A stretch of DNA of 64,000 nucleotides from Amoebophrya sp. A120 (Eukaryota > Protista > Dinoflagellata): NCBI GenBank assembly GCA_905178155.1, contig CAJINV010000002.1, forward strand, positions 1,091,809-1,155,808. Direction: 5' to 3'. The notes below the pieces were generated by a model. It ran no database searches. It was not told the DNA's origin and saw nothing but the letters and a program-made list of their open reading frames with translations. A program made the translations under genes and the position numbers. Of the stretch, positions 6,376 to 63,044 are shown piece after piece (within the stretch, counting starts at the first letter, position 1; each line of letters opens with the position of its first letter).

Positions 6376-9300
6376 TCAATTCCCGACCACCTTCGTGACC
6401 ACCACATTCAAGTTCCCCTCGCGCAAGACAAACCAATCCGGTTCCCGTCCCCGCAGGGCTCCAGTTCGCGAAAACATGGCTGCGTCGGAGATAATTTCTA
6501 CTTTCAGATGCCGGTTTGCCTTGCTGCTTGTGCTACTTCCGGCGTAATATCAAGCGCAAAATTATCGCACTCGTCGGACTTCTTCTTGCAACAGCACTGC
6601 ATGACAAATCTCGTTTCTCAGCAAAGAAATCAGCATGACAAATTGCATTTTTCCTATCCTGACATCAAAACTTGTGATGCAATTCATACGTAGTCCGATA
6701 ATTTTGCCATTCATATTCCGTACGTCACATTGAAATCCTCTTTCCACCAATAGGGCCGGGTGTAGTATCCTGTCCAAAGTATCGCACTCGTATTAATGGC
6801 AATTATGCATTTACAAATCCTTTTCTTAAGCAGGTAAATCCGCACTACAAATTTTATTTTTCATGCTGAGGAAATTTGTAATGCATTTATAAGAGGACGA
6901 TACTTTTGCAGTTCATATGTACGTGCCGGTGACGGTTTCCTCATCGAATTTCTCCTCAATAAAAGCCTCTTCTTTGTAATGTGGAATCCCATCAACGGAG
7001 GAAAACGCGGGGTGTTTCGACGTATTTGTCTTTTTGCCGCCAGTAGTTGCTGTAGTACCAGGAAAAGATGTTGCGGCCGCTTTTGTACTACTAGTCTTGA
7101 TCACGTCTTTACTGATGTCGCTGTCCACTTCGGCTTTGCTATCTGCTCCTTCCCCGGCTGGCACCAAGACATCATTATCCTGTTTTTCAAAAACATCCGA
7201 GTTCAGACACTTTTCAAAAATATCAAATGTAAAAATGTCTGGGTCTGGAAGATTGGAACTTGTGATGCTAACTTTGGACTCTAGAAAAATCGGTATTGCA
7301 TGACCAGCAAGAGGAGTCTAGTTTGTGCTACGCGGGGAGGGCGTTTGTCATGCGGAGTAGACATGGGGAAGCCCTCTCAAAATCTGTGATGCGCGGCCGT
7401 GCATTACAGACATCCTGGGTCATGCAAAACATGCATGACAAATCTCAGAATGTTCCAGACCCAGACATTTTTACATTTGATAGAAAACCTCCTTCCCCAA
7501 CGTGAACATGGTTTCTGTTCCCCACGACCCCGCGCGTTTCCCGCAGGAGTCCGTGTATGTTTTTGTACTGGATGCAGTATTGGTTGCCGGAGCAGTAGTA
7601 GTAGAAGGTTCTTGTTCCGAAGATGCAGATGTTCCCTCCTCCGCGGATGAACTACCCGCCTCTACTGTCGTTTGATCATGCTCGTCCTCGACAACGCTCC
7701 AACTAGCATCACACCCCTGCGGCAAACAGCTGATCACCAATTTCCCCGTGTCTTTCAAAATCCGCAACACAGTATCAAATGTAAAAGTGTCTGGGTCTGG
7801 AAGAATGCAACGTGTCATGCTAAATCTGAAGCATGCAAAAATCTGTGTTGCATGATGACCAGCCTGGAGGGAGTTTCTCATGCAGGATAGGCATGAAAGA
7901 GATCGCACAGAATCTGTCACGCTAGGTCCTGCATTCCAGGCTTCGTGGGTCATGGAAAAGCTGCATGACAAATCGCGCATTCTTCCAGACCCAGACATTT
8001 TTACATTTGATACACAGATTTGAGCCAAATGCACTGCGCCCTGATAGAGAGTAATTGTACCACGGAACAGGTTAAAACGTAGTCAAAGGAGTTGTCTTTG
8101 ATGAAGGGCAAGTGCAGAGACTGATCGTAATTGACTTGGCAAAACTTCTGCTGCTGGTGCTGCTGCTGATGTTCATGATGTTGTACTCGGCTTTCAGCTT
8201 GATCGGAATCTTCTTTCTGGTGGGGTATTGTTGTTCCTTTTGCAGAAGCCGCAAAAGAAGAAGTTGAAGAAGGGCTTTTCATTTCTGTGCTTTGTGGCAA
8301 AACAAACACATTGTCCGCGGAGTATTTGTTGGCAAAGTCCACCGCTCCCTTGATGATATCCACACCGTAGATATGGGAGTGTCAGGATTGAAATCGACAA
8401 AGGTGAAATGATTTGTCATGCATAAAATGGATACCAATTGGACCCACAGTTTCTACTCAGTGCATGACAAATTTTATCCGTACCGGAGGCCAGTTTGTCA
8501 TGCTGTTTCGGGCAAAGGGGCTCCCCTCTGTGATGCTAATCAGCAGCCCAATTCTCGATCCTTACCAGCACTACAATCTGCCTCCCTTGCGTCCTCTGCA
8601 ATAGAGGCAATTTCTGCGCTGCATTTTATGCATGAGAAACTATTTCAACTCTGGCGAATTCGGTCCTGACACAACCATACTAGACCCGCACCCCGTACAG
8701 CTGCTGCAGCCACATCATTTTGTGGCCGCACCCGGAACCGAAATCAAAAATGGACTCGTTGGGGAGAAGCTGTAAATGGTGCGCGAGGGAGTTAATCATA
8801 CAGTAGTGCCGGGATCTCTGGTCGAATTCCCACATTTCGGTGTCGATATCCATTGCAAAAGTATCGTCCTCGTAGTAATTGCAGTTATGCATTACAAATT
8901 TCTTTCTCAAGTTAAATCCGCATTACGAATTTCATTTTTTTACACTGAGGAAGTTTGTCATGCGATTTCTACTAGTACGATACTTTTGCAATTTATAGCC
9001 GAATTGACAGGTCGAAAACAGCTTGTGCCTGTCCATGCGGTCATTGTACTTGAAAGTTGCGTGGTAATCTTGGTTTTTGAGGACAAGCTGCTCCTCCTCT
9101 TCGCCGCCCTCTTCATGTTCGGATGATGAATTTTGATTTTCAGAAATGTTGGCGGTTCCTTCTCGCGCTAGGATCGAGGGACAATGAAGGTGCAGTTCCG
9201 TATCGTTCGTCTTCATTGCTGCGAAGGCGCTCGGCCCTCCAATTTCTACCGCATCTTGTTCAGGAGCTCCTGCGCTATTCGTATTTTTCCCTCTGGTGGC

Positions 9301-11813: not shown

Positions 11814-12589
11814 GATGATTTATGCCTGATGAGTGCTAGGCCGACGCAATAGAAGAGAACTGCTTCTGAGCAGGAAACATGAGCAACGCTTTGCCTTTGT
11901 GGCTAAAGCAGAGACGACAAAAATAAGAGTTCTTGTTCGGTGCCTTGTTCTCGTCTCCAGTGGCTCGCAGGATGACAAGATTATAGATACCGAAAAGGTC
12001 ACCGTCACGACCACGACGACGACAACGGGCGCGTAGACGTGTCATGCTTAGAAGCATCAACACCGTCACAACGGACAGATTCACAACTGCGGTGAACACA
12101 TACCACTAAAACAGGCGCAGTGCGCTATTACGCATGGCACGAACTTCGTGCTGTTGGCAGCGGTGCTCCTTTGGTTTGGATATCGATAACATTGCCATAT
12201 CAATCAGTTGTAAAAGTTATCAACATTAACTCCACCAGTCTGTCATAGAGATAGTCTTTTACAATCGATAAAAAATCCAAGTTTTTGCTGCCTTTGCCGT
12301 TTACATTTTTGGATGAAAGATCAAAATCTTCTTTGAGTGCTCGTAAAATCTAGCCTGACTAGGAGTCCGTCGGTACATCTTTGGTACATCGAGCGTGAAT
12401 CTAGTATAACGCCGTGGTGCCCCTCACAACAACTACATTCATAACATTGAGATGTTGATTGACTCAACTTCTGTATCTGTACGTGTACGTGTACCTCAGC
12501 AAAATTATCCGAATAATAAACATGGGAGGAAACAACAAGTGCCAACACACCAGAGCAGAAACGGAGCTAGATCATGGTCGTGGGTTTGT

Positions 12590-15010
12590 TCACATCGCCC
12601 GTACCAAGCGGCCACCGTTCATCCCGAGCTTGTTGGTCATGGTATTGTTCCGGAGATTATTGCTGTTCCCGCCGACCATACTGCCCATCCCCCCGAACCC
12701 GGCATCCGACAACAGCATCAGGCTTCTCAAATCCGAACTTTTCACCTGTTTCGCGTACTCAAATACCCAATCCGGCAAGGGTTCCATATGGCGTTCTCAA
12801 ACGTGACACTCTCAACTGTTACACTTACATGGACTTGTAATGCAAGAACAGCAAAAGTAAAAGAGGCAACGTTACAGCTTTCGCATCACAGATTTGCCAC
12901 AGATTATCATGCTGCTTGGCCCTTCGAAAATTTGTCATGCTAAGCACCTTGATCAAGTGGAGGCTGATGGCAATTTTGCATCACGAATCCATGTAACAGT
13001 TGAGAATGTAGCGTTTGAGTACGCCATATTCCATGTCCTCGCGAAATTTCGGCTGCCAGTCCAGAAAGTTGTCCTCCAGGTACACCTATCAAATGCAAAA
13101 GTGTCTGGGTCGGGAAGAATGCGCGACTTGTCATGCAGCTTTTCCATGATCCATGAGGTCTGGAATGCAGGACCTAGCATGACAGATTCTGGGAAGTCTC
13201 TATCATACCTATCCTGCATGAGAAGACCGCTCGTGTTGGTCAAAAAAGGACACTTTTTGGTGATCACGCAACACAGATTTTTGTGTGACCCACAGGACGC
13301 ATCACAAGTTCCAACCTTCCAGACCCAGACATTTTTGCAGTGAATAACATCTGTCCCTCTTCCTCCAGGTCTTCCTCCTCGTTGATCGCTTCGTCCGCCC
13401 AATTCAGGCTCGATTTTTGCAGCACCGCCGGCTGGTGGGGCTGCTGCTTCGCGTGCTGTGGGATCCGGACGCCGCGGGCCGCCGTGCCAGCATGTGCCAT
13501 CATGTCTTTACTTGTACCTCCGGAGATCACCGTGCCCGAACTCGTTCCCGTTGGGGTCGGCAGGCCTGTTTTTGTTCCATTCCCATTCGTATTTATGTGA
13601 ACATTTTTTGGTTTTTTTCAAGCTATTAAATGCAATACCGACAAATCTTATTCTGGTTTCAATAACAAAACAAGCACTGTACTGTGTGGCTGCGTCAGGT
13701 GTCCGGATTTGTTCAACCCCTTCGCCATGGACAGAGACATGCTGGTATGGAATGGAAAACATCTTTATTTTGTCATGCTGTTTCGCAACATGATCATGAG
13801 CGCACACGTAAATAAGATCATCGTCAACCTCTTCATACAACTGATTATTCATTATTGCGCCATATTAGCTTCGACCGTATATGAGAAACAGCATGACAAC
13901 ATGCCTCATCATGTTCATCCTCGCACGAAGCCGTGTACTCGCTCAGGCTGGGGCTCGAAGACAAACTGCTACCGGAAGGAGAGGGCTGTAGTTTTAGTTG
14001 TAATTGCGTTTGAATTTGGTTTGCATGCATGCATGCATGGGAAAGAGGAATCGCATGTAGGTGTAGACATCATGACGTATGTGACACTCAGTTCCTCGTC
14101 ATGCACCACATTCACCCAAAAAAAAAATCTTCAGCAGCAAATTCTACTAACCTGTGCCACGACGCCCGACTTTGCAGTCTTCTTTCCACCTTCCTTCGCC
14201 TCGTCATCATTTGCAGAGGCGGCTTTCTTCTTGGCCCGCTTCTTCTTCGCCTTGGTCGCTGCAGATTCGTTGGTTGAATTTGTACCGGAGAAATCGGTCG
14301 CCTGATCATCTTTCCCGCCAGCAGCAAGAAGCACCGCTTCCTGTTTGTTGGCATCTTTGTCAGTGCTGGTACCAGAAGTTCTTTCAGCAGTGGCGGAGTT
14401 GATATTGCTGTTATCGCTCTTCTTCTTCATCTCATGACTTCCTTCCCCTTCCGATTCTTGTTTCTCATGATTCAAACTTTCCACCCGGACGGTAGAAGTT
14501 TTCGTCGCTCCGCCCGCAAAAGTTTTCGTTTTTTTCCATTTGTCCGCTTTATTTTTCTTGCTATTTTTTAAGTCCTTCTCCAGAAGCGCCGGGTGGATGT
14601 TTGCATCGTCTATTCCAACGTCTCCCACAGCGGAAGTCGTTCCAGTTGTTCCCAATAAAAGCCTATCCTGTGCAAAAGTATCGCACTCGTATAAATGCAT
14701 TACAAATTATTTCGATTTCCTCAGCAACAGCATGAGAAATAAAATTTGTAATGCGGATTTACCTATAAGAAAAAGAGTTGTAATGCATGATTGCAGTACG
14801 AGTACAATACTTTTGCACTGGATAAAGCCAGTCCGCCAGTTGAGTGATTGATTCGTAGAAATCTTTGACGAGCAGCTTCAGTGCTTTATCCACCTTGCTG
14901 TGCCCTACGTAGGACTTCAGAAAATAACCGACTGCACCAATAACGATGAGGGGAATCGCTATGCGATTGAAGTTCTCCTGTGCGGAAAACAAATCGTTGG
15001 CGAAGAACAT
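12590..15010 (-). CDS. Hypothetical protein with N-terminal transmembrane helix
   Basis: MFFANDLF..IAIPLIVIGAVGYFL start. Frame restored across elements 14664, 13087 and 12787 (..EGQ(M/V)YLEDNFLDWQPKFREDMEPLPDWVFEYAKQ..). The intron at ~13620-14150 is not resolved. Confidence 0.6.
12787..13028. mobile_element. Introner, family C (TIR CTCAAACG..CTCAACTGTTACA)
   Basis: DR ttcca/ttcca; frame restored. Confidence 0.9.
13087..13346. mobile_element. Introner, family B (reverse orientation)
   Basis: DR acacc/acatc; frame restored. Confidence 0.9.
14664..14824. mobile_element. Introner, family A
   Basis: DR aagcc/aagcc; frame restored. Confidence 0.92.
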
Positions 15011-15966: not shown

Positions 15967-18463
15967 TCAGCACCCAAACAAGCAGCACCTTCTGGGCGGG
16001 TTTTTCCGCTCTTCTGCGAGGATCTCTTTCAGAATTTCCGAGGATTTCTGTGTGTCCGGGATTTTCTTACCCTGTTTCCAAACCTTGGAGGCGGACCGCT
16101 TGTTGGCATCCTCGTTCTTCTTATCCTGTGCAAAAGTATCGCACTCGTAGTAATGCTTGCGTTTATGCATTACAAATCTCCATCCCAAGGTAAAACAGCA
16201 TGACTAATTCCATTTGTCATGCTGAGCTAATTTGTATTGCAGTTACCACTACTACGATACTTTTGCAGTTCATATTTCTCCTCGTTGTTCGCGTTTTCCT
16301 TGTCCTGATTGGGACAGTTTTTCTTCGCATCCATGGAGGGCGAGGTCTTGCTGTCGGTTTTGTTCTCCTGCTCTCCTACTACCTCCAATTCGCTCGTCAC
16401 GATCTTATCAGCAACCAGCGAGTTCTTCTTGTTCCCTGCCTTCAACACTCGGGCCTGTTCATCTTGTTCACCCACGTTTTTCATCGGCATGAGAGGGCTG
16501 CTGATCACCACGGGGGAGGCTCCCGGCGTGGGGGAGGTCACCGTGATTGTCGGGATTACCACATCACGCGGGTTCAGCGTAGCTTCCGGACCGCCGATGA
16601 TAATATCCGAGTGGGAGGAAGTACGGGGAGATTTGATATTACCGGAGCCCAGCGGCGACTTCGCGTTCTGATCTTTCATGTTCTGGTGAATCGACCGAAT
16701 AAGGCTGTTGCGCACCGGGGGCGCATCATCTTCTGCAGGAGACTCGGTTTTTTTACTGGTTTCGATTTGTTCCCCTTCTGGCAGCTTTGTGCTGACCATG
16801 GCTGAGTTCTCCTTGACTGCAGCGGTGGAATCTGTGATGTTAGCGAAGATTGATAGATGTAAGAACACCTCCGGTCGTGGGGAGTTCTTTAGACGAAACA
16901 TGGCCGCGAACCAATTCTGTATTAAGTGAACCTGAACCCAAGCCCAAGAACTCCACGTCACAATCGAAAAATCTCCAATTTTCCTCGTATTCTTATGCTT
17001 ATGTCGTTCCTCGAGTCCATACCTTTGCTAACTACACTATCCATACCTTTGCTCATAACTACACAACTATCCATACCTTTGCTCTCCACCGTGCTCGTGC
17101 CGCTCGTGAGATCGCCTATCACCTCCTTAGCCGAGTCTGCAATCGCTGTACTCACCGCCTGATTCAAAAATTTCTCACGCATTTGTCATGCAGTGTAGCA
17201 ATTTGTCATGCAGTTTAGAAATTTGTCATGCAGTTTAGCAAAATGATTATTTATAATATGCACCGTATCGACAATCGCTCCGGCAGCTTCGATATCCTGT
17301 GCAAAAGTATCGCACTCGTAGCATTCGCAATTATGGATGACAAATCTCCTTTCCAAGACCAAGCTCAATCAGCATAACATATTCGATTTGTCATGCTAAG
17401 CGAATTTGTGATTGTTTTTGTATTGCAATCCGTACTAGTACGACACTTTTGCAATTCATATTCGATGTTTTGATCCTTGACGATACCCGCCACAACAATG
17501 TCTTCCATATCCTGTTGCGCTGGTACGCCTTTGACGTCTTTTTCAACCTGGGAATTTTATTCATGCAGAGGCATCGGAAAAAGGCAAGCATCATCGGCCT
17601 CATCAATTCAAATTCACTGAACGAGTACTGACTAGTACAGATAGAATTTTTATCTTGCAGCTATCTTCGCAAGAAATGCAGGTCGTTTGGTTTTGTCCGA
17701 ATATTAAATTTGCTCCACCGCAACTGATGTTCTTGCTGGCACAGCACCTAATACCTTTTGCGTGTTCTGGTCATCAGCTGCTGGAGTGCTGGAGTTTCTT
17801 GTCTCACTCGGCACCGGCTTCGTATTCGTTCCCACAACGCTGTTCTTGACCACAGAACGCTTCACCTCCGCCATATCAAATTGCACCGTCTCCCGCGCAT
17901 CCTGATCCTCATCAGCGGTCCCACGAGCCATCATATCAGTGGCCGACAATGGGGAAGAAGCAGATGCCGTGGTTTCTTTGCTAGCCGAAGTGGAGGTAAT
18001 ATGCTCCTTCTGGACGGCGCCAGCAGCTGAATCGGAGACAGCCGTGAAGTTAGACGTCGTGGTGACAGCAGAAGCAGCAGCATCTTTTTCTTTCGCGGAT
18101 GTTGCAGCTGCACTCTTGTCCCCAGCCAGGCGAGCGCCCGGCGTGCTTTGCTCACGAGTTGTTGTTTCTCGCCCGTTCTTCGCAGCATCCGAAGCGGTAG
18201 ACGTCGGCTCTTGAGCCCCTGCAGAAGTCGAAGTGGTTCGGCTCATAGTATCTTTGTTGCCTTGTTGTTCTGCCCCAGCTGCAGAAGTACTTGCGGAAGA
18301 TGCGTTGGTGTTTCGCCTCGATTTTTTCTTCTTTTTTTTCTCCGCGTTCTTACTCGAGGAACTGGTTTTCGAAGACACTTTCGTGATGCTCGCGGACCCA
18401 GACTCGGAGGTTACTGGCGGCACGACGGGCCACAGACGACGCCCTGAGAACCCACGAAGATCC
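15967..18463 (-). CDS. Low-complexity Ser/Thr/Lys-rich hypothetical protein ending RRCCLFGC
   Basis: Exons joined across a GT-AG intron at 17548-17754 and elements 17293 and 16122. A TTTTCAG acceptor at ~18463 suggests an upstream exon (possibly ORF 19747-20121). Some junctions are unresolved. Confidence 0.55.
16122..16274. mobile_element. Introner, family A
   Basis: DR cttct/tttct; frame restored. Confidence 0.9.
17181..17240. repeat. 3 x 20-bp tandem repeat built on the intronic motif (ATTTGTCATGCAGTTTAGCA)
   Basis: Directly visible; lies in a short intron. Confidence 0.85.
17293..17460. mobile_element. Introner, family A
   Basis: DR ttcga/ttcga; frame restored. Confidence 0.9.
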
Positions 18464-19086
18464 TGAAAAGATCACCCCCGACACCCCAGGGGGAGGGGTC
18501 GGAAAGATTCGGAGCGTCCGCCCCTCTGTAGCTTCCAGGGACAGCCTGCCGACGAAAGGGAAGCATAGACCGCTCGTGTAACGCGCGTTACACGAAGGTA
18601 TGGTAGATGTGAGAAAGGGCCAGACGCCCCGCGGGCGTTGCCACAAGCGCTAGCTTGCTGGGAGTGACAAATAACCACGCCCAACAAAGGCGAGCGAGTG
18701 GTCGCGCGGTTGTAAAAGCCCTGGCGCGACGCGGAACAATCTGGGGCCCGGCAATGGACGGAACTGCCCCCGTCCGCAGGGTCCATCTCGCTTCCATGGG
18801 CCAGATATACCCGAGCCCGAGGACAAGGCCAGGTCGGAAATGGTCCAGCAAAAGACGGCGCACTAGCCCCAAAGCGAGTTTTTTTTTTGATTCAAAAACG
18901 AAGCCGCTGAATTTGTTGAATCAAAGAAACAGCCCGTGTTTCAAGGGTAGAAAGGCCACTTCTTGAACCCCGAACAAAGGATCCGACCAAGGTTCAAACA
19001 ATGTTCAAAGTCGCCAATCACGGCGGTATGGCGAAAGCTTCAGAGGCCAAAAAAAAGTTCCTAAAAAGTTCCGTTCAAGATCCGAT

Positions 19087-19228
19087 AAAGTTCCGATCAA
19101 GATCCTGTCCAGAGGACACTTTTTTGGCCACTTTTTTGCGCCGCCAAATCCATAGATTCTAGGCGGGGGAGGGGCCAGGAAAAGCGGCGAAAAAAGTGTC
19201 CTCTGGACAGGATCTTGATCGGAACTTT
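19087..19228. repeat. Perfect 39-bp inverted repeat with 64-bp spacer
   Basis: 19087-19125 is the exact reverse complement of 19190-19228. Confidence 0.9.
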
Positions 19229-21577: not shown

Positions 21578-24500
21578 TCACATTCCCAACGCAGACTTCA
21601 ACTCCGGCAGATCCGCACAGCACGAGGCCACATCCAGCGCAAATGTCCTCGCTTCCTCGGCATTAGAAATCGCGTACTCATCGCCAGCGACGGCGGCAAT
21701 TTTGGTCCAATCTTCGCCCACGGTCGCTGATGTTGATTTTTTTTCATGTTTCGCTTATTTTGGAATTAAAGGAAACAAAATCTCATGCTAGAGCTAGAAG
21801 CTCCTGTCAATGTCCTGCACGCTTCGCTATTTCAATCAAACACTTGCAGTTCGCATACAAAAAAAAAAATTCTACCGTCTATCCACACTTCTCGTTCCCC
21901 TCCTTTCCGCACTGCCGGCCGGATGGATTCTAACAGGGAGAAAAAATTCACGTCCGCATTGATCCGCATGCCGCCGAGGAGGTGGCATCCTGTGCAAAAG
22001 TATCGCACGACTCATAGTAATTGGAGTCATGCATTACAAGTCTTTTTATTGACGTAAAGCCGCATTACAAATTTCATTTCTTATGCTGAAAATTTGTAAG
22101 TAATGCATTTATACGAGTACGAGAATACTTTTGCAATGCATAAGTGGCTGAGCTTGACGACCTCGCCGCCGATACCCCCAATCAACTCCACTACGGCCGC
22201 GCAGGGAACAAAATTGTCGCTGTCCGCGATGGATTTCAAGACACACCGGAGCTTCGCCAGACAGAAGGGGCCTGAGATGGACCATAATTTTTAGCATCAG
22301 AATGTGATATCATGTGTAGATCTACGAAAGAAATGAAAAGCACTTGCTCATGCACATAATTTCTTTTTCGTTCTCAATTCTCAAGGATAAATCGTCACAT
22401 CAAAAAAACTTAAAGTTCAACAACTTTAGCACCTTCCTTTCCCGCCTTCAAGCCGTCTACCAACCCCTTTTTCAATTCCACTAGCGATGCCGCTACTGGC
22501 ACCTTTCCCGCCACTACTGCTTCGTCGTCCGTTGGCTGTCCAATGTTTGGCAGGTTCTTCTCTGCCTTTTCGAACATGAGATTGTCTTCGTGCACCTTGT
22601 GACTCGTCTTTACCTTGGCTAATGATATCCACCTGTGTGCAAAAGGTACCGTGCTTGTAGTATGACTAATTGACACCAGTAGATGCGCCTTGCTAGTACC
22701 TGACTGCTCTGCATGACAGATTCCATTTCTATTTTGAGAAACAATCCAGATTACTAGCAGTAGCACGATATCAGTTTTGCAACGCATAAATGACGTGTGG
22801 CAGCTGAAACTAGAATTCTTTCCGAACGCGTGGTGGCCGGTTGCGTATCAGGGGGTAAAGCGTTAACGTCGGCAGTTTAGATCGCACATTGCAGCCAGGC
22901 ATGACATTGACAGGTTCTGGTTGTCATGCGTGCTAGGCAAAACACAAATTTCTAGGCTACAAATTCGCTCGCGTGAGCGTTTTTGCATCACAAATTGAAA
23001 TTTTGTTTTTTCCGTATCCGTTAACGCGTTTTTTTCCAGTGATAGTGCGGCAGACGCATTCAGGGAAGACCGGATGTAGGCTGTTTTGGTGTTTACTTTT
23101 TTATCCTGTGCTGTAAAAGTATCACAGTCGTTCATAGATGAATCTCGTTCATGCATTCCAAATCTCGTTCTTTAGGTGAAATTCCGTTTCTCATCATGCT
23201 GAGAGAGTGCGCAACAGTCAACATCACAAAAACAAAAGCTGTACATTTTGCTGATTTCAGCTGCTCGGAGTAGAATGTAATTGGCACGTCAGTGGCGTAC
23301 TTCACCGTGGTTTTCACGTCACTTCTTGTTCTCAACGGCTCCGCAACCCGCCTTGTGGCTTCCACTGTGATAGGATTGGATTTTCGATTCAACTTCGCAG
23401 TTTCGATGCCCCTTCTCATGCACAAGACACAGAGAAATCATCTTCACGTCTGTCATGCACTACCTACAACGAGCACAAGCATTTGGAATTATTGCGCACC
23501 GTCAACATGATGCATGTAGATGTAGCAAAACAATGATCTTCACTTTGAAAAAATCAAAATTTCAATACTCCTTGGCACCATGTCCTGCGTCGTTGTTGTT
23601 GGGAAGGGAAAAATACACTTGTCTTTCTCGACCTGCTCTACCTCCTTCATATACTGCTCTGCGAACTCAACTGCCTTGTCGGCATGTTGCAGCTCTCTTG
23701 CTATCCGCTGTAAAAGCATGGTAATAAGTAGCAGAAATCGCATCACAAATGCGGTCAGCATGAAAAATGAAATAGAAATTTGTAATGTTGGATAGGGTAC
23801 AAAAAAATAGATCTGTCACGACGCATGACTGCCATTGCTACGAGTACGATACTTTTGCAATGCATACTTGGACCGGCGGAACTAAAGTTGTCTTCTGCGT
23901 GCGCGTCGAGGTTGCCTTCTCGCTGGGTTTAGATTATTTTTGAGAAGCACTACAAACAAAATACTCAGCTTTGTCTACTCAATCTTAACTACGCATGACA
24001 AGTTGGATCTGCAGCTGCATTGTTGATCATTCGCTTCTACTTTTTATGCATTGCACACTCATCAAAAACGCCCAGGGAAAGCAATGAGTTATACGAAAAA
24101 CTTCCCCGTTTCGCCGCTTGACCTTTCCAGCTTGTCGTACGTCTATGGAAAGGAAAAAAACTGCACGGTGCTCCTGCTCTCTTGGTTTTGAATGCGATCA
24201 ATCAAAGCACAAGCTGAAAAATTGCCGTCGGTTTGGCCTCCGTCCCATGCACAAGTTGTCCATGCGTTTTGAGACTGAATGAAAATGTTAGACGAAGACA
24301 ACTGTCTTCAACATTGCCTTCTATGAGTAAATTGCCCGAGGAAAAGGCACGTACGATCAAAACCTGAGCAGTATCACGACCCCGCTGCATTTCACCATGG
24401 CGTACTACCCTGTGCCCGTATACCCTCTGGAAGGTGTCATCTGTTTCTTTTACCTCACTCGGTTTCTGTTGTAGAGGTTGGGTTTTGATGATGATGATGA

Positions 24501-41406: not shown

Positions 41407-44400
41407 TTATTCAAACCCGAGCTCGGGCACCTTCATGTTGAAGCGGATGGCGACCTCGGGATTCACTTTTTTGTTCTTCGTCAACTCGGCGTCGGACCTC
41501 ACTGGGCGGATCGGAACCCCGGCTTGCTTCAGCTGCAGGCCGATATGGATTGCAAAACTATCGAAGCACACTTCTAGTAGTGAGTGCATTACAAAGTTTC
41601 CCAGCATGACAAATGGAATCTGTAGTGGTGAACTGCCCAAGAAACCAGATTTCTCATGCATGACTGCAATGATTCGGATTCCTACGAGTGCGACAGTTTT
41701 GTACCACAGGATAGTTGACCTGCTTCAGCAGCTCGCGGTTCATCTTTTTCTCGTTCGCGTTCATTTCCGCTTCCTTCAGCTGCAGCTTTTTCTCGACCAT
41801 CATCCTCCGCAACTCGTCTTCGTTTCGCTTCTCCACAGTTCGTCGCTTGCTAAATTTGTCTATGCAATACAAATTTCCCGTACGTGTACGAAATGCATCA
41901 CAAGTTTCGCCAATTTGAAGTGTGCCTCTTGTCATGCTCATGCCAAACTAGTATTGAAGCCGTATCTTGTCATGCAGAGACCGCATTTGCACGTCTACGG
42001 AAACTTTACTGTGGATATTGTCCTTCTCGTTTTGATTGTACAGTGCATCCTCGGACAGCGTGCGTTGGAGCTGCGTTTTTTGATGTGATTTGTCATGCAG
42101 AAACGTAACCACAGTAGCAATTCGTCTTCGTCATGCTGAAGCTGAATAGGAAATAAAGCGGCAGAAGAATCTTACTCCTACCTGCCTCCTGCCCTCTGCC
42201 ACTTCCTCGTCCTTGTTTCCCTTTGTGTTATGGCGTTTTCAAACGTTTTTGCATCGATCGCTGCTACATGATTTCTATTTTGATAATTTGTGCTGCAAGA
42301 TGAGAAATGAACGCAAATGAGGACGAAGCTTGCAGCGCAGCTTTCACCAGCATGACAAGTTTGACATGGATTTGAATGTTGTTGAGGGCGTTAGAAAATT
42401 GCTATGCGAGAAAATGGCTTGATCATTCAGAAAGACAAAGAATGTCGGGCCGGGTGGCGAAAGTGCCTTGCATGACAAACCCAGTAGAGGAAATGAACAT
42501 GTATATGTAACGGCGAACAATGTAACCACGTTTGAAGAGAGCACCATACCTCTCTGCCATCTGCTTGATGTGAAACTCCTTGGTCGCATACCGCATCGAT
42601 TTCAGCATCTGCGCCTTGTCGTTTTCCCTCTGGATCGCGGTTTCTGTGATGCGCTTCTCCTCGTTTCTGGCACGCTCCTCGGCTTCCTTGAGCTTCTGGT
42701 CCGCTACGGCAGTCTATGACATTGCACAACTCCCCATACCCCTCATTTGCGTTGCATGAACAGCAACACAGGCGCTGGCAAAGATGCAGCTTTTACATGA
42801 CAGAAGACTGTAGTGCTGTTTTGGATTCCCGAATCTGTCATGCAAACAGTGCTAACAGGCAAAGGGTGGATCATTTGGAATTTTGCATGACAAATGAGGG
42901 GGAGGGGGAGTTGTGCACCCTCATACAGTCACCGTGCTCGCCATCCGCTTCATGGCAGCGTCATTTCGCGCCACACGGGCGTCCTTTTCTGCTTATCAAA
43001 TGCGAAAATGTCTGGGTCTGGAAGAGGAGAAGTTTGTCATGCACACTTTCCATGATACATGATGTCTGTGATGTATGCCATAGCATCACAGATCTTTTGA
43101 GCGCCTATCGATGCGCATCCTGCATGACAAATGCCCTCTCCGCGTAGCCAAATTTGGCTCCTCTTGCTGCTCATGCAATACAGATTTTTGTAGCATCCAA
43201 ATGCAGCATCACATGTTTGGCTCTTCCAGACCCAGACATATTTGCATTTGATACTTCTTTATGCATGGTAAAATTCATTTGAGTCGACGATGCCTACCTT
43301 GCTACTATTTTTGAAACACGTTCCTACTTGCTATCACCCAGGAGGTGAACAACAAATGCTGAACGTCGGTAGCTGGCGTTTTTGCAACTTACTACAACGA
43401 CCCAGTTGCTGGAGTGAGTAGAGCCCAACATCCTCGTGCTGCTAGTAGGTATCAGCAGCAGACTCGACTCAAAAGTTCAACTTGTTTTATTTCCTACGCT
43501 TGCCGTTTTCGCTCCTCCTCGTCCATGCGATCGTTGTAGAGCTGCATCAGCGCGCGGTCTTGCTCTGAATTGGGACGTTTTTGTTCATCATCAGCATGAC
43601 AAATATCTTCAGCTGTGCTGTGTATGTGTTTTTGCTTTGCATGACATTGACAAAGAGCTGTCTGATAAGTAAGTACCTATCAATCTCTCCTTTGCTTCCT
43701 TTCTCTTGATCAAATCCAGCTCGTTTTCGGCCTGTATTCTGTGCAAAAGTTCTTGTATCGCACTCGTATAATTTATGCCAGTCCTCTTGCAGCATGATAA
43801 ACCTTAACCTCCTTTTTGACGTTTATCTGCGACGAGAAATTCCTTTTGGAAATGTTAAACATACTCATGCTACTCATACCGGTACGGGTACGATAGTACT
43901 TTTGCAATGCATATCCTGCACATTCGCCATGTGCTCCCGCTGGTTTCGTCTTCTTCTGGCGAATTTGTCGTCTTCTGCTTGGATCTCCCCCTGGATTCGT
44001 TCCTTCGTTAACGTTTCTGCGATGGAGTCGACTCTTTTCTGCTGCATTTTTGTTTTCTTCTCCAGCTTATGAACTGCAAAAGTATCGTACTAGTATGGAT
44101 TGCATTACAAATTTTGCTAGCATCATCATCATCATTGAGACGAACCCCCTGCGGTCGTCCTCACGGTGCCGTCTTGGCCCTAGGCTGTTTTGGACAGATG
44201 TTGGCTGTGCCCAGCAAGAGGACGGCTCTGCGTGGGCAAATGTTGGTAATGTCCAGCAAGAGCGCTGCCGTAGCATGAAAACTGAAATTTCTAATGCGGA
44301 TTTACCTTAGGAAAAAGATTTGTAATGCATAGCTGCAATGACTACGAGTACGATACTTTATTTGCAGTTCATACAGCTCTAATTGCTCGTCTCGCATTTG

Positions 44401-47000: not shown

Positions 47001-47363
47001 AGGTGTCCGCGACACCTAAAATTAGGTGTACGCGACACCTAATTTTAGGTGCACGCGACACCTAATTTCAGGTGCAGGCGACACCTAAAATTAGGCGTCG
47101 CGGACACCTAATCTGCGACACCTAATTTTAGGTGCACGCGACACCTAATTTCAGGTGTCGCGGACACCTAATCTGCGACACCTAAAATTAGGTGCACGCG
47201 ACACCTAATTTTAGGTGCACGCGACACCTAATTTCAGGTGCAGGCGACACCTAATTTTAGGCGTGGCGGACACCTAATCTGCGACACCTAATTTTAGGTG
47301 CACGCGAGCGACACCTAACGACACCTAAAATTAGGTGTCGCGTGCACCTAAAATTAGGCGACA
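47001..47363. repeat. Palindromic minisatellite, core CACCTAA(AA/TT)TTAGGTG
   Basis: About 15 units of ~22-24 bp with variant linkers and no unique spacers. Confidence 0.92.
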
Positions 47364-55052: not shown

Positions 55053-58000
55053 TCACAACTTGAACACATTTTTCCACGCCCCTGCATCCTGAAATTCGGA
55101 GCTCACCCCCGACAAAACCACCTGGGCGGCCGCCAGCACGATAAACACCGCAGTGCTGATCAGGAAGAGGGACGCATACGGGTACTCGAAAATCACCCAG
55201 TCAAAGTAGGGCTCGTACTTGGTCGCTCGCGCCTGGCGCTGCAGTGTTTGGTTCGCCAGTGCGTTGTTGGAGTTCTGGGTAGCGTCCGCTTGAGCTGCGG
55301 AGGACTCGGGGTCGTACAGGGTTTCGTAGTCCAACCCGACATGCCCGCTGGTGATCTGACGATTTTTGCATTTTTTGATTTGTGTCGCCATACAGAATTT
55401 ACAACGCTGCACCAGCATTGTTTTTGTTTCGGATGCGCCGTGGGTTGCATCCATGACAAAAGAAATGTGTAATCCATACAATACCAGGTCGTCCCCAGGC
55501 AGTGCATTGCCCATGTTCACGATTTGTGCGGAACACCAGCTAGCGACCTTGTACAGCCCTTCCACGTAGGTTGGCAGCAACTCGTGCTCCGATGGCGCGT
55601 TGTCCATTGCACTGCTGTTTCCCGCCGCGTTGCTTGTGCCATTCGCCGCAGTAGCTTGTGATGCTGGTGCGATGGATGCTGCTGCTTCCTCTCGATTCTT
55701 GTCGAAGTTGAAGTAGGACAGCAGTACCCCAGTCGTGCTGTTTGTGACACCAGACTGGTTGGGTATGCATTGCGAAAGCATCGTACTGGTAATTAGTGCT
55801 TCTACTACTACTTCTACTTGCCTTACAGATTTTACCAGAAGCATTAGTCATAATCCACGACTTCCAATTTGTGGTAATGCTGATTTAGCCGTAAGCAGCC
55901 CATCTGTCATGCATGACTGCAATTAGAACTAGAAGAAGTACCCGTACGAAGATACTTCTGCAGTGGATCATATTGGCAACGCCACTGCAGTTCGTGCTGG
56001 TTGTACAGGCGAGAGAGAAGTTAGACGCAGCAGCAGCCAGTTGCGCCGCCAGCAGTACAGAAGCAGCGTCGGAGAAATTCTTCTGCACTTGATTCGCGTC
56101 CACGGCAGCCTCGGTCAGCGTTTTGCGTATTGCTTCCTCCGGGTTGAACACGGGACTGAGCGTTTTGTCGTCTTTCCAGCTCGCGTGGTGGTGTACGGTG
56201 AAGTATCAAGTGCAAATATGTCTGGGTGGGTCTGGAACTTGTGATGCAAGCCAGGGAATAATGAGCGCAGTGTAATACGTGGCCAAGCATGGCAGATTTT
56301 TCCGTGGCTCTGTGTAGTTGCGGATTCCGCACGAGAAGCATGTTTTTGCATGACAGACACGAGGAGCTCTTCGTAAACACGCAATACAGAGCTCCGTGGC
56401 ATACCAGACTAGCATGACAAACCCGGGCGGATTCTTCCAGACCCAGACATATTTGCAACGCATATGAAGCGCACGCCGAGAAACCGGTTTGTGGTGGCGT
56501 TCTGGAGCTGTTGTTGCGACAACGTCGACGGGTCCTGCACGGCTTCAGTGAAATAATTCGTGCTGTTGTCCACATGGTAAGCCGCGAAAATCTCCGGTAT
56601 GGAGGATTTGAACACCAGATTATCAAATGCAAAAATGTCTGGGCCTGGAAGAATGGAACTTGTCATGCAGATTTTCTATGACCCGTGAGGTCTGGAATGC
56701 GGGACCTAGCATGACAGACTCTGCGAGGTCTCTGCAATCCCTATCCTGCATGAGAAACTCCCTCCCAACGAACTTGGTCGAAAGAGGACAGCTTTTGGCA
56801 CTGATGCAACACAGATTTTTGTACGCTTCAGATTTACCATGACAAGTTACCACCTTCCAGATTCAGACCCAGACATATTTGCAATGCATACAGATTCGAA
56901 CCGTACAAGAGCGACGAGGGGTAAGTTTGGTTTTGTGCAACGCCGGCGGAGATGTTGACCGAAGCGTTTGCTGAGACGTTGCTGCTCGACGTCCCGGAGG
57001 ACGCGGTAGTAGGTCCGGCCGGTGACCAGTGCTCGAACTTGAAATCGCTGGCGTTCAGGAACTATGCATTGCAAAAGCATCGCACTCCCACTCGCTAGTA
57101 ATCGCAATTATCCATGACAGATCTGATCTCTTTCTCATCCAAGTAAATGTAAATCAACATGACAACTTCCATTTTTCTGTCACCATGCTAAGTTAAAATT
57201 TGTAATGCGATTACAACTACTTAACAGCACGATACTTTTGCAACCCATAAACCGAGCGGGTCGTGGAAGTAACTGGCGAGCACCGTCTGCAAACTCTCGG
57301 TCAGGCTGGTCTGCTCCTTGGTCAGGATCTGCAACAGGTCACTGCTCACGTTCAACACCGCTGGCTGTACCAGGGCTGCAGATATGCATTGCAAAAGTAT
57401 CTTCGTACCAAGTCTAAATTGCATCACAAACTTTTTCAAGAAGAAAAACGGAATTTGTATATGCTGATTGATCTGAAAAGGGATGTTTCTGATGCATGAG
57501 CATGGTAGCAAGTACTAGGAGAACGATAAGTACTTTTGCAGTGCATAGCAGATGCGTTTGATGCTCCACCACTGCTTGCTGATGGAACTACTACAACTGC
57601 ATTCAGATTCAGCACCTGGTCCAGCACAGTCGCATTTCCCTTTATCGTGGTGTTGTCGTACAGAATCGCGTCTGGGATTTTCACTTCGAAAATTTGCAGC
57701 ACGTTCACCGGTGCTTCGTGGTTGCCGCAGGCGGTGCCGAGGTGCGTGGCCTCGTAGATCAAAACGTTGGTGTAGAGGTCGACGTATAGATTGCAAATAT
57801 GTTCGGGTCTGGAACAAAGTTGTGATGCAAGGAAGGCAAAAATACTTAACACACTGCAATACGCTGCCAAGCATGACAAGTTTTTCCGTGGTGGTTCTGG
57901 GTTGCGTATTCCGCATGAGAGACTCCATTTTTGCATCACAGTCAAGAGGAGCTCTTCGCGGCCACGCAATACAGAGTTCAGAGTCATGCCAGACTAGCAT

Positions 58001-59869: not shown

Positions 59870-62800
59870 TCAGCTCGCCTCTTCTTCGACCTCATCTTTA
59901 CCCGCCGGCTCCGTGCCCACGAGGAAGGCCACATTCTTGGATCGTCCGGTATTCAGGGAAAGTAGCAGTGGTAGTTTTGAGTCAAATAGGACAGCTCTCT
60001 TCTTTTATGTTGAAGAAACTTGTCATTATGTTGAAGAAACTTGTCATGCATCGAACGCGGCCAATGCGCTTGTGCATCGTAACAATTTCATTCAGTTTAT
60101 TTGCATCCACTTTGCTGTTGCGAAAAGCAAAAGACCACACCCTCTCCTGATCTGTCCCTCTAGACGGCAGCCCCTGCACTTTTCAAATTTTACGACGAAG
60201 TGTGAAGATGCTCATATGCAAAGTTTGTGTCTGCTCGTCGCGTACAAAAAGAACGCAAGACAAATGACTCAAATACAAATGCTTTCTGTTTGACTCAAAA
60301 CGACCACGCGCAGTTCAACAGTGGGATAAAATCTCGAATACGTGTTGTCGAAGACCAGCACCATGGTTCCTGCGTTGAATGTAGTTGTAGTACGTAATGT
60401 TTGTCATGCGAATTTTTCATGAATCGAAACATCTGTCATGCGTAGCAGCAACAGCAAGCATTCTGCTATACAACTTTACTAGGAACTGGTTGATTCGTCA
60501 AAAAGCATCAAATCCATTCTATACTGTCCTCATCGGCCACCCAACTGCCTTCGATGGTGTCCACGTTGTCGTATCGTTCCACTGGTAACACGTCTTCCTG
60601 AAGTATCCAACTCCAAATCGGTCCGGGTCTGGAAGGAATAGAACCTTGTACTGGTCATGCATCACAGATTCATTGATCATGCTGCTCAAAGCGAGTGAAC
60701 TCATTTTGCACTGCCTGTATTCAAAAACTTGTCATGCTGCCTTTGCCTCTATCAGGCTGTCCTTGTTCTATTGCATTCTTCACATCAACGAATATAATAG
60801 CGGAAGTGTAGAAGTGGATCACAAGTTGTTCTTATTTTTCGACCGGGACAGATTTTGAAAATTTCCCTGTGATATCCACGGAGCCGCCGTCCTGCATGAC
60901 CCTTACGCGCACCCCGAAACCGATATCGAAGTCCTTCACCCGAAAACTCCATCGCATCAGGGTTCCCTTCTCGACCAGGTAGGCGGTTGTGTATTCCGAC
61001 CGCGCAGACACGGAGAGCTCTTCGGCACCGCGGATCTGGGGTAAAAATTCAGATTTTTTCGACATAGAAGAGGTTGTAGCTGACCACAAAACGCGACATC
61101 AAATTCAAATAGAGCACGAGAAGCTATAGCAGCAGCAGAAGAAGACCGCGTAGGTATGTAGGTTAGCATTTCACGTACCTTGATCTCCTTCCATTTTTTT
61201 GCTGCTTCCCCCCTCTGGAGCAAGACTTCCTGTGCGGATTTTCCCCACACCAGGCCCACCTCGTCTTATGCAGTGCAAAAACAGCATGATCGTACTCGTG
61301 TAATCATCGCAGTCGCGAATGAGACATTTGCTTTTTTAATACCCTGAAATGGCATGCCAGGACCAACTTGTATGAATACTGCACTTCATTTCCAAAAATT
61401 TATCATGCAACTACACCGAAATGGCACTAGTACGAAGTAGGTTGTTTTGCAATACATACGTTTCTGATTTTCACGATTTTTCCCTTATCGTAAGGAAAAA
61501 TCCCCCCTCCCCATATCGAAAGCGTATCCGTCTGAAAATTTGTGATGCGCATTTGTGACCTCAAATCCTGTCTGTCTTGCAAGAAGGCAAGTCCAGAAAG
61601 CGTTCCGCAATTTGCAGGCGGTTTGTGATGCTGTTGGGCTTAGAGCATACACGTTTGTCATGCGAGGCGCCTACGTCAAAACCTCTCGACTGAGGCTTGA
61701 CATATGCCTGCAGTCGTCTCTAGCAAGACAAATCTGATTTGTGTACGCAAATCCAGCATCAGAAACTTCGTTTTGATATGGAGAGGGGGGATTTTTCCTT
61801 TTGATATCCCTTCCCCTTGGACCACAGCTCCTTCGATTTTACCGATGCTCGCTCCTTTACCTCCTTCGTCTTATCTCAGGTGTCACAATGAAAAACAGAC
61901 ACCTCCGCTTGTTCCCCAAAACAAAAAGTAAAAGTAGACCTTTAATGTGCCGCACCAGCGTCATCTGTACATCTTTCAGACCAGCAGTGTGTGAGCCTGT
62001 CATGTCAGAAGACATCAAGCCACAGCAAGGTCGAGTCAGGTGTGGTTTTGGAGTGGTGGAGAGGTCGAGGTGTATTATTTTCCTTGCGATAAAAGTACTC
62101 CTTTGTTTTTTCCTCTACTTTCGACTTGATCTCGCCGGATTTTTCGATGACCTTGGACTTGTACTCCTCCGTTTTTTCAAGCGTCTTCTGCACCTTCTCG
62201 TTTGCCAGGAATTCCCCGTATTTCTTCTTATGGCCGTCTCAAACGTTACATTCTCAACTGTTACACGATTTGCCATGCAAAATCAACATCAACATCAACA
62301 GGGTGAAGCGACTTCGCATGACAAACTCCCGGAGGGCTAAACAGCATTGAAATCTGTGCGGAATCTGTAATGCTAGAGGCGCAATTGTCCCCCTTTGAGT
62401 TTTCCTATTCTTGCATTCCAAGTTCATGTAACAGTTGAGAATGTAACAATTGAGAGTCCCATACTCCTTCGCCTTTTCTTGTGCGGTCGCCGCCATCGCG
62501 GTGCCCTTCTCCGTTAAGTTCTTTACCCTGTTGTTTTTTCTTCAATTTCCACCAAATGTTGAACGAGAATTTGTCATGCACATCGACCAAGAACTGTCTG
62601 AACCTCAAACGAAGATCGAACATTTGTCATGCGGACGCAAGAATAGAGGGTTTCACTGTCATGCAAGAGCAGTAGTAGAAAACATAACTCTTTACCTTTC
62701 ATTTTCCTGCAGCTTCGAGTAGGTCTCCTTTGCCTTCTCCTTCGTTTTGTCGACGATTTGTATATATCCTGTGCAAAAGTATCGCACTTCTGCGAATTGC

Positions 62801-63044
62801 AATCTTGCATATACAGATCTCTCTCCTATAGGCAAATCAACATGACAAACAAAATGTGTCTCAGCTTCCTGCGAAAATAAAAATTTGTGATGCAATTTGT
62901 ACTAAAGTACGATGCTTTTGTAAAAATGCATAGGGTTCCCTTTTCGGAGAGGTAGGTTACCGCAGCGCCGACTTTTGTTTGGTTCTTCGGTGGATCCGGG
63001 ATCGGATCGGTTATCTCGGCTGGCCCGCTGCTGGAGTCCGCCAT
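59870..63044 (-). CDS. GOLD-domain protein with Lys/Glu-rich helical N-terminus
   Basis: Spliced C-terminus AEELSVSAR..LMRWSFRVKDFDIGFGV..EDVLPVERY..IEGSWVADEDRTMVLVFDNTYSR(L/F)RSKNVAF matches the GOLD pattern. Six elements plus GT-AG introns. Confidence 0.85.
59950..60328. mobile_element. Introner, family J (TIR GTGGTMGTTTTGAGTCAAA)
   Basis: DR lost, but element+5 nt restores GOLD motif DNTYSR(L/F)RSK. Confidence 0.8.
60604..60874. mobile_element. Degenerate introner, family B-like
   Basis: Left TIR remnant gggtctggaa, TAT..ATA ends; frame restored. Confidence 0.65.
61267..61458. mobile_element. Introner, family A (diverged)
   Basis: DR cgtct/cgttt; frame restored. Confidence 0.8.
61486..61806. 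mobile_element. Introner, family K (TIR AAGGAAAAATCCCCCCTCYCCATATC)
   Basis: DR tccct/tccct; frame restored. Confidence 0.9.
62229..62463. mobile_element. Introner, family C
   Basis: DR cttct/ctcct; frame restored. Confidence 0.9.
62765..62932. mobile_element. Introner, family A
   Basis: TIRs clear, DR diverged; element+5 nt restores GT|QIVDK. Confidence 0.8.

What the first reader, a model, noticed from the sequence alone, without database searches (positions are those of the whole stretch)
8367..8684. Imperfect direct repeats suggest the splice register: intron = N-TAT...ATA-NNNN
Seen: at 8372 the transcript-upstream repeat TCTAG would create a stop (GTC TAG), while the downstream copy TCTAC gives VYGVD, so the fifth base must come from the downstream copy. 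At 59950 the repeats are fully diverged; upstream bases 1-4 plus downstream base 5 give YSRLRSK, the best fit to the GOLD pattern. The fifth base is G in only about 14 of 49 elements scored. Inference: the cut lies between repeat bases 4 and 5. TAT(G/C) would then occupy positions +2 to +5 of a GTATG-like donor with a free +1, and the acceptor would be set by distance (4 nt after ATA), not by AG. This suggests a relaxed, stem-guided spliceosome.
Basis: inference. Interest (0 to 1): 0.75.

Follow-up and report, generated by a model that had tools for sequence, protein, structure and literature searches.

The report
Splice code of Amoebophrya transposon introns
In the plankton parasite Amoebophrya A120, transposon-born introns that lack the usual GT and AG ends are cut at one fixed place, one base before a TAT and four bases after an ATA, and the bases they keep suggest that an ordinary spliceosome likely measures the cut from a branch adenosine seven bases from the end.

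Summary
The window is Amoebophrya sp. A120. The elements are its published introners, whose splice borders were left 'variable' or 'unknown' in print.

Spliced RNA contigs constrain 22 elements: all 22 fit N-TAT...ATA-NNNN, four fix it exactly (24140, 57059, 59946, 61877), and none contradicts it. The deposited A120 protein reads VYGVD at 8372. Position +1 is free (G in 15 of 53), and nearby AGs are skipped.

'Stem-guided' is weaker. Three elements with no better-than-shuffled end pairing still fit 1+4, two of them exactly. In 319 elements of a close relative, terminal-triplet changes spare T+2, A+3 and A-7 (22 versus 3), and these bases are not stem partners.

Best reading (0.6): a relaxed major spliceosome reads N-TA and a branch A at -7. 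Against it: no lariat data, a poor U2-like context, and -7 A in GT-AG introns is unproven (10/10 discovery, 7/11 follow-up, absent in noisy predictions).

The parts
8368..8680 (-). Focal intron at the 1+4 register (313 nt): G-TAT ... ATA-TCTA, in a methyltransferase-domain gene
   Evidence: Pfam methyltransferase below cutoff for the exon, listed for P0007
8372..8679 (.). Focal element between its terminal inverted repeats (TAT...ATA)
8680..8684 (-). Transcript-upstream 5-bp repeat TCTAG: bases 1-4 exon, base 5 (8680) is intron +1
8367..8371 (-). Transcript-downstream repeat TCTAC: bases 1-4 end the intron, base 5 (8367) is exon
8374..8374 (-). A at intron -7, candidate branch adenosine (inferred)
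   Evidence: asymmetry test
24140..24405 (-). RNA-exact intron G-TAC ... ATA-GACG; weak stem; in-frame AG 3 nt upstream is skipped
57059..57250 (-). RNA-exact intron T-TAT ... ATA-GTTC; AG 3 nt upstream is skipped
59946..60329 (-). RNA-exact intron T-TAT ... ATA-CCGG; no significant end duplex
61877..62092 (-). RNA-exact intron T-TAT ... ACA-CCTG (variant triplet keeps A-7)
60600..60875 (-). Intron; RNA allows a cut after repeat base 4 or 5 only; no significant end duplex
62761..62933 (-). Intron; RNA allows a cut after base 4 or 5 only
21982..22143 (-). Intron ending ATG-CCAC; RNA excludes a cut after base 5
22842..23045 (-). Intron; RNA excludes a cut after base 5
8843..8998 (-). Intron; RNA piece and deposited protein allow a cut after base 4 or 5 only
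   Evidence: (table 8)
16118..16275 (-). Intron; RNA piece end excludes a cut after base 5
   Evidence: table 8
6544..6716 (-). Intron with fully diverged repeats; deposited protein allows offsets (1,4) or (2,3) only
43255..43255 (-). Predicted one-base exon between back-to-back elements 43256-43497 and 42990-43254
12198..12271 (-). Short 74-nt element-like stretch with a stem, retained unspliced in the RNA contig
   Evidence: (piece 12174-12781, no gaps)

Best explanation
These 5-bp-repeat TAT...ATA elements are removed from mRNA at one fixed register, N-TAT...ATA-NNNN, and are likely cut by the ordinary major spliceosome with its G+1 and AG checks relaxed, reading T+2 and A+3 as the donor and the A at -7 as a predicted branch point from which the acceptor is measured. 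Shown: the register; free +1, -2 and -1; skipped nearby AGs; orientation-dependent conservation of T+2, A+3 and A-7; splicing of elements whose terminal stem has decayed. Inferred: insertion as a DNA transposon with a 5-bp target duplication. Because the TIR is symmetric, either orientation supplies TA at +2/+3 and A at -7, and one repeat's worth of bases leaves with the intron, so the mRNA is restored at any target. Also inferred: branching at -7 and exon ligation six bases further on. The stem probably helps bring the ends together in young copies but does not set the cut.
For: Register: 22 of 22 RNA-constrained elements fit; 4 are exact, 3 more exclude a cut after base 5, 3 more exclude a cut before base 4. 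Only (1,4) fits all 7 elements of the focal gene in P0007. Asymmetry: in 151 coding, oriented elements of a close relative, 16 carry one deviant triplet base (-5 x7, +4 x5, -6 x3, -7 x1, +2 x0, +3 x0). After hand review of all 31 variants: 22 spared-class, 3 critical-class, 3 unresolved, 3 false; p 8e-5, or 0.002 if all unresolved cases count against. +4 variants are mostly T>C and -5 variants mostly A>G on the sense strand, so one mutational strand bias cannot give both. All three exceptions have a canonical escape: a GC donor, a GTG donor, and AG|GT inside the target repeat. Stem pairs are +2:-5, +3:-6 and +4:-7, so the held bases are not partners. End duplexes at 59950, 24144 and 60604 do not beat shuffles (p 0.195, 0.275, 0.5). 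In the yeast P complex, G-1 pairs with G+1, A-2 pairs with the branch A, and U+2 pairs with U6 (bioRxiv 212811, passages); losing G+1 and AG together while keeping U+2 and an A fits that geometry. A120 keeps 83 of 89 spliceosomal proteins and U2, U4, U5 and U6 (PMC7789003 section 10). Fixed short branch-to-acceptor spacing is known in Yarrowia, Trichomonas and Giardia (PMC2483917, passages).
Against: No lariat, snRNA or Prp8 data. The bases upstream of A-7 match a branch consensus poorly (T at -9 in 17 of 53). Six bases after the A is one fewer than the shortest distance seen in S. cerevisiae (7 nt, PMC10711555), though by my count from the printed consensus Yarrowia is shorter. A-7 is predicted paired with probability >=0.8 in 13 of 23 spliced elements folded and would need unwinding. 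Three bases cannot alone specify a site: the 74-nt element at 12198-12271 has them and a stem, yet is retained in the RNA contig. Sharing of A-7 with GT-AG introns is unproven: 10 of 10 in the discovery set, 7 of 11 in follow-up (p 0.13), 1 of 1 in L003, 1 of 4 by eye in L069, and no excess in unvalidated predictions (0.19-0.24 against 0.22-0.44 at neighbouring positions). U1 snRNA was not detected in A120. RNA evidence is assembled contigs from one sample, flagged 'RNA?', and cannot show minor registers.
Confidence: 0.6

Rival explanations
1. Stem-ruler spliceosome: the terminal hairpin hides the 3' arm, branching occurs upstream at a GCAT(G/T/C)ACAA copy, and the acceptor is taken four bases past the foot of the stem.
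For: End duplexes beat shuffles (p <= 0.015) in 19 of 23 spliced elements. Arm complementarity is high at TIR positions 8-20 (mostly 121-146 of 151). GCATGACA is common in elements (181 in 31.9 kb, both strands), absent from 7.2 kb of intergenic DNA and rare in exons.
Against: Exact 1+4 cuts at 59950 and 24144 without a significant duplex. Tolerated variants break terminal pairs while keeping non-partner bases. The motif's position is unconstrained: no sense copy in 27 of 151, and more than 60 nt from the end in 72 of 151.
Confidence: 0.2
2. Non-spliceosomal excision by a protein endonuclease and ligase, or an unknown machine as proposed for Euglena non-conventional introns, recognising the paired ends and releasing circles.
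For: No GT or AG requirement, and U1 undetected. Euglena introns with paired ends and a fixed offset are released as circles (PMC11282704, passages; PMC12501133, passages).
Against: The held bases are the spliceosomal ones (U+2, A+3, a lone A near the 3' end), and the exceptions have GC, GTG or AG|GT escapes. Pairing is dispensable in old copies. No +1/-1 covariation (p 0.62), which is neutral. Cuts are staggered 1 and 4 bases outside the stem.
Confidence: 0.12
3. The register is not fixed: cuts slide within the repeats, as the published figure legend implies, and contigs show only the commonest form.
For: PMC7789003 Fig. 3 legend calls the sites 'variable'. Contigs drop rare variants. 8 of 22 elements are uninformative and 4 only weakly informative.
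Against: Four exact junctions, in three genes, all give 1+4; the three agree in 4 of 4 runs. The nine most common A120 non-canonical motifs in Table S4 all have T at +2.
Confidence: 0.05

Closest known systems
Amoebophrya A120 introner elements (Farhat et al. 2021, PMC7789003)
   Same: Same organism and same elements: inverted repeat starting TAT with an A tract, 5-bp direct repeats, non-canonical ends.
   Different: That paper calls the splice sites variable and the border unknown, and found no splice signature. Here one register and three held bases are shown. Its Table S4 (T at +2) and its phrase on four upstream repeat bases partly anticipate the register. Its figures 3 and S14-S25 are images I could not see.
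Fritillaria borealis non-canonical introns (PMC13326754; review PMC11282704)
   Same: MITE-like introns with TIR and TSD, outside GT-AG, processed by a conserved U2-type spliceosome.
   Different: Fritillaria keeps preferred ends (AG-AC, AG-AT) and a strictly conserved U1 5' end. Here +1, -2 and -1 are free, and U1 was not found.
Euglena non-conventional introns, N3CDG...CHG-N5-6 (PMC12501133)
   Same: Cuts at fixed offsets from short inverted motifs; direct repeats blur the borders.
   Different: Different motif and offsets. There the motif bases pair with each other and circles are reported; here the held bases are not partners.
Fixed branch-to-AG introns of Yarrowia, Trichomonas and Giardia (PMC2483917)
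   Same: Acceptor anchored a fixed short distance from the branch A (-6 to -8 by my count from the printed consensus).
   Different: Those keep GT, a strong ACTAAC and AG. These lack all three, and the branch role of A-7 is untested.

Membership tests
Amoebophrya A120 introner elements | Host genome is A120 | tested here: met
   Exon 8016-8366 is 100% identical over 117 aa to a deposited A120 protein
Amoebophrya A120 introner elements | Terminal inverted repeat starting TAT with an A tract | tested here: met
Amoebophrya A120 introner elements | 3-5 nt direct repeats over the borders | tested here: met
   5-bp repeats, 4/5 at the focal element
Amoebophrya A120 introner elements | Removed from mRNA | tested here: met
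   22 elements in RNA contigs; focal element through deposited protein
U2-type spliceosomal intron | G at +1 | tested here: not met
   15 of 53 in window, 50 of 151 in relative
U2-type spliceosomal intron | T at +2 | tested here: met
   151 of 151 oriented coding elements; one GC case on hand review
U2-type spliceosomal intron | AG at the 3' end | tested here: not met
   0 of 53 in window; 14 of 151 against 14.9 expected
U2-type spliceosomal intron | Branch adenosine used to form a lariat | not testable with these tools
   A-7 held in 150 of 151 is a candidate only; no lariat reads
U2-type spliceosomal intron | Branch region complementary to U2; donor complementary to U1/U6 | not testable with these tools
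   No snRNA in the window; the paper's snRNA alignments were not found as text; no genome held
Euglena-type non-conventional intron | N3CDG...CHG-N5-6 signature | tested here: not met
   Logos show N-TAT...ATA-N4
Euglena-type non-conventional intron | End pairing required | tested here: inconclusive
   4 of 23 spliced elements lack a significant end duplex; prediction only
Euglena-type non-conventional intron | Released as full-length circles | not testable with these tools
   Contigs only; the raw-read runs did not cover exons
MITE (non-autonomous TIR DNA transposon) | TIR plus target-site duplication, many dispersed copies | tested here: met
MITE (non-autonomous TIR DNA transposon) | Cognate transposase | not tested
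   PMC7789003 found none in A120; PMC12130899 reports TIR transposon introners in A120

The most novel reading that the evidence does not exclude
Amoebophrya A120 has a major spliceosome that has dropped the G+1, A-2 and G-1 checks altogether and defines an intron by three bases: U+2, A+3 and a branch A exactly seven bases from the end. A symmetric TAT...ATA transposon end supplies all three in either orientation, so any insertion into an exon becomes a perfect intron. This would explain tens of thousands of introners, one-base exons between stacked elements, and the apparent loss of U1. It predicts the same geometry for the TTA...TAA elements of strain A25.
Probability: 0.45. Interest if true: 0.85.

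Novelty: new variant of a known kind. Interest (0 to 1): 0.63.

Why it matters
The 2021 genome paper reported over 60% non-canonical introns with no splice signature and left the mechanism open. A single register turns thousands of apparent dinucleotide combinations into one rule, which would allow re-annotation of about 30,000 repeated introns (count from PMC7789003). The orientation asymmetry names one base (A-7) as the predicted branch point, so one lariat-sequencing experiment can separate spliceosomal from non-spliceosomal excision. If true, this is a natural spliceosome that ligates exons without the conserved GU/AG pairings, and a transposon whose symmetric ends make it harmless at any exonic target.

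Tried and rejected
No whole genome is held. No listed holder is on record as RNA. Raw-read runs X9-X11 laid only 25, 5 and 165 reads, on repeats, so they gave no junctions. One search showed 15 of 37 joints, and the focal joint was not among them. One joint (58047->62765, side 24, two runs) joins two different repeat copies and was dropped as repeat-derived. Blind acceptor and gene-model predictions to test A-7 in GT-AG introns were too noisy (9 of 17 supported at the strictest window setting) and showed no excess. The search for related loci with alignment A1 found no relative, so the A25 geometry could not be tested. Rfam found nothing in the window. GCATGACAA as the obligatory branch point was set aside because its position is unconstrained. 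A pull of +1 towards G was rejected: at base-5 mismatches the intronic base is A in 8 of 10 and the exonic base G in 6 of 10. +1/-1 covariation was not found. 21 non-JACKZZ loci of 154 were left out of the element statistics, and 168 of 319 elements were left out of the strict set as unoriented or not clearly coding. Two look-ups of earlier scan findings returned nothing.

Full report
Identity. Every stop-to-stop frame over 270 aa lies on the minus strand, and the RNA-joined GT-AG introns read on that strand. Exon 8016-8366 is 100% identical to a deposited Amoebophrya sp. A120 protein. A second gene has Amoebophrya orthologs at 75-84% identity. The TAT...ATA elements match the A120 introners of PMC7789003; I read its abstract, sections 10 and 16, keyword passages, and supplement passages plus part 3. 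That paper states that no clear splice signature was found, that sites relative to the hairpin are variable, that the border position is unknown, and that U1 snRNA was not detected.

Observation. I curated 53 elements in the window. A fixed rule finds 36 candidate pairs against 0 in 20 Markov controls. At 8372, keeping five upstream repeat bases gives a stop and any earlier cut gives VYGVD, which is what P0007 reads. Position +1 is A18 C11 G15 T9, and 0 of 53 end in AG.

Register from RNA. Contig runs X1-X4 are one sample, flagged 'RNA?'. They join GT-AG introns and elements in the same contigs with no other letters in the listed pieces, so they behave as spliced mRNA. One search showed 15 of 37 joints (9 elements, 6 GT-AG), and its piece table constrains 3 more elements. 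One search showed all 15 joints (10 elements, 4 GT-AG, 1 dropped as repeat-derived). Of the 22 elements, 4 are exact at 1+4 (24140-24405, 57059-57250, 59946-60329, 61877-62092). Three exclude a cut after base 5 (21986, 22846, 16122) and three exclude a cut before base 4 (8847, 60604, 62765). Four are weakly informative, 8 uninformative, and none conflicts. In the focal gene, (1,4) is the only offset pair compatible with P0007 at all 7 elements; that protein is a gene model, not raw RNA. In-frame AGs 3 nt upstream (24140, 57059) and an AG 2 nt downstream (61877) are not used. Contigs cannot show minor registers.

Is the stem the ruler? Most elements have strong end duplexes, but 59950, 60604, 24144 and 22626 do not beat shuffles (p 0.195, 0.5, 0.275, 0.29), and two of these are exact 1+4 junctions. 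Arm complementarity drops at TIR positions 4-7 (80, 99, 90, 47 of 151) next to the terminal triplets. A 74-nt element-like stretch with a stem at 12198-12271 stays in the RNA contig, so neither a stem nor the three bases below is sufficient.

Which bases matter? The element is symmetric in DNA, so only transcription can make its two ends differ. A pattern scan gave 154 loci. I used the 133 from one assembly, a close relative of A120 (91-97% amino-acid identity at L003). A flank codon model oriented 30 of 35 window elements, all correctly. Among 151 coding, oriented elements of 319, sixteen have one deviant triplet base: -5 x7, +4 x5, -6 x3, -7 x1, and none at +2 or +3. Hand review of all 31 variants gave 22 at +4/-5/-6, 3 at +2/+3/-7, 3 unresolved and 3 false calls. 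That is p 8e-5, or 0.002 in the worst case; by pair it is 9:1, 9:1 and 4:1. The three exceptions are a G-CAT start (GC donor), a G-TGT start (GTG donor), and a -7 G in an element whose repeat AGGTG offers a canonical AG|GT splice. Window variants agree: TAC and TAG at the 5' end, ATG, ACA and ATT at the 3' end. The stem pairs +2 with -5, +3 with -6 and +4 with -7, so the held bases are read singly, not as pairs. +1 and -1 do not covary (p 0.62), and terminal AG is at chance (14 against 14.9).

Mechanism (inferred). In the yeast P complex, G-1 pairs with G+1, A-2 pairs with the branch A, and U+2 pairs with U6 (bioRxiv 212811, passages). An intron class that frees +1, -1 and -2 but keeps U+2, A+3 and one A near the 3' end looks like a spliceosomal substrate whose acceptor is fixed by distance from a branch A. 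Non-AG acceptors close to the branch point are used in yeast lacking Prp18, with a shortest distance of 7 nt (PMC10711555, passages); ours would be 6 by that convention. Fixed short spacing occurs in Yarrowia, Trichomonas and Giardia (PMC2483917, passages). A120 retains nearly all spliceosomal proteins, and a spliceosome without U1 exists in Cyanidioschyzon (PMC10158995, passages).

Results against this reading. A at -7 appeared in 10 of 10 RNA-joined GT-AG introns, but this was the discovery set. Follow-up introns supported by RNA lengths or homology gave 7 of 11 (p 0.13), L003 gave 1 of 1, and L069 gave 1 of 4 by eye. Unvalidated predictions in the relative showed no excess. Several GT-AG exceptions have pyrimidine-rich ends with an A at -8 to -11. 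The context upstream of A-7 is a poor branch consensus, and the A is often predicted paired. What picks this A in stemless copies is unexplained; a T tract at about -14 to -18 is one candidate. GCAT(G/T/C)ACAA is intron-specific and a rival branch motif, but its position is unconstrained.

Comparison and novelty. The elements are known. Four searches of the held library (Amoebophrya with non-canonical introns and repeats; with introner and splicing; with splice sites and snRNA; with branch, intron and lariat) showed no paper fixing the register or proposing a branch point. I also read keyword passages of PMC12130899, PMC11282704, PMC11453091, PMC12005148, PMC9860276, PMC11170887, PMC13326754, PMC12501133 and bioRxiv 2022.06.08.495308. 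bioRxiv 2020.10.14.339549 was seen as a listing only. Subscription papers are not searched, and the figures of PMC7789003 (Fig. 3, S14-S25) are images that may show part of this. Its Table S4 already has T at +2 in all nine leading A120 motifs. I file this as a new variant of a known kind: register confirmed (about 0.95), branch-ruler spliceosome likely (0.6), interest 0.63.

Noticed in passing
window 42990-43497 (-): Two back-to-back elements leave a predicted one-base exon (A at 43255); the join gives RKRQAEKDARVARND, as in orthologs. A single large intron off-register would give the same peptide.
   Followed up: partly
window introns and loci L001-L154: GCAT(G/T/C)ACAA occurs on both strands in elements (188 sense, 210 antisense in 31.9 kb). 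Its core CAT(G/T/C)AC runs 20 sense to 10 antisense in 21 GT-AG introns; the motif is rare in exons and GCATGACA is absent from 7.2 kb intergenic DNA. Possible splicing enhancer or transposase site.
   Followed up: partly
window 12198-12271 (-): Short element with stem and ATT variant end, retained in the 3' part of an RNA contig; shorter than any of the 53 curated elements (minimum 110 nt).
   Followed up: partly
window 44428-44553 and 43565-43676 (-): GT-AG introns that contain decayed element ends (TGT at 44507, CAT at 43643), possibly old introners whose donor moved to a nearby GT.
   Followed up: no
window 13742-14152 (-): GT-AG intron whose end reads ATA-CCAG like an element end: an intermediate between the two classes.
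   Followed up: partly
PMC7789003 Table S4 and Fig. S23 legend: A25 motifs start TT and its repeats lie 1-6 nt from the sites; TTA...TAA plus 6 nt would also put T at +2, A at +3 and an A at -7. Not testable here.
   Followed up: no
window 28250-30300: Near-identical tandem duplication with a period of about 1046 bases (matching elements and ORFs at 28272 and 29318).
   Followed up: no
window 47010-47360: Tandem array of a short AT/GC unit (CCTAAAATTAGGTGTCGC-like) upstream of the coiled-coil gene.
   Followed up: no
window 18400-20130: GC-rich, low-depth stretch where RNA contigs show other letters; looks like a different repeat or mobile element.
   Followed up: no
window 37755-38888 (-): Exon with an Ssl1-like (TFIIH p44) Pfam hit, E 1.6e-11.
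   Followed up: no
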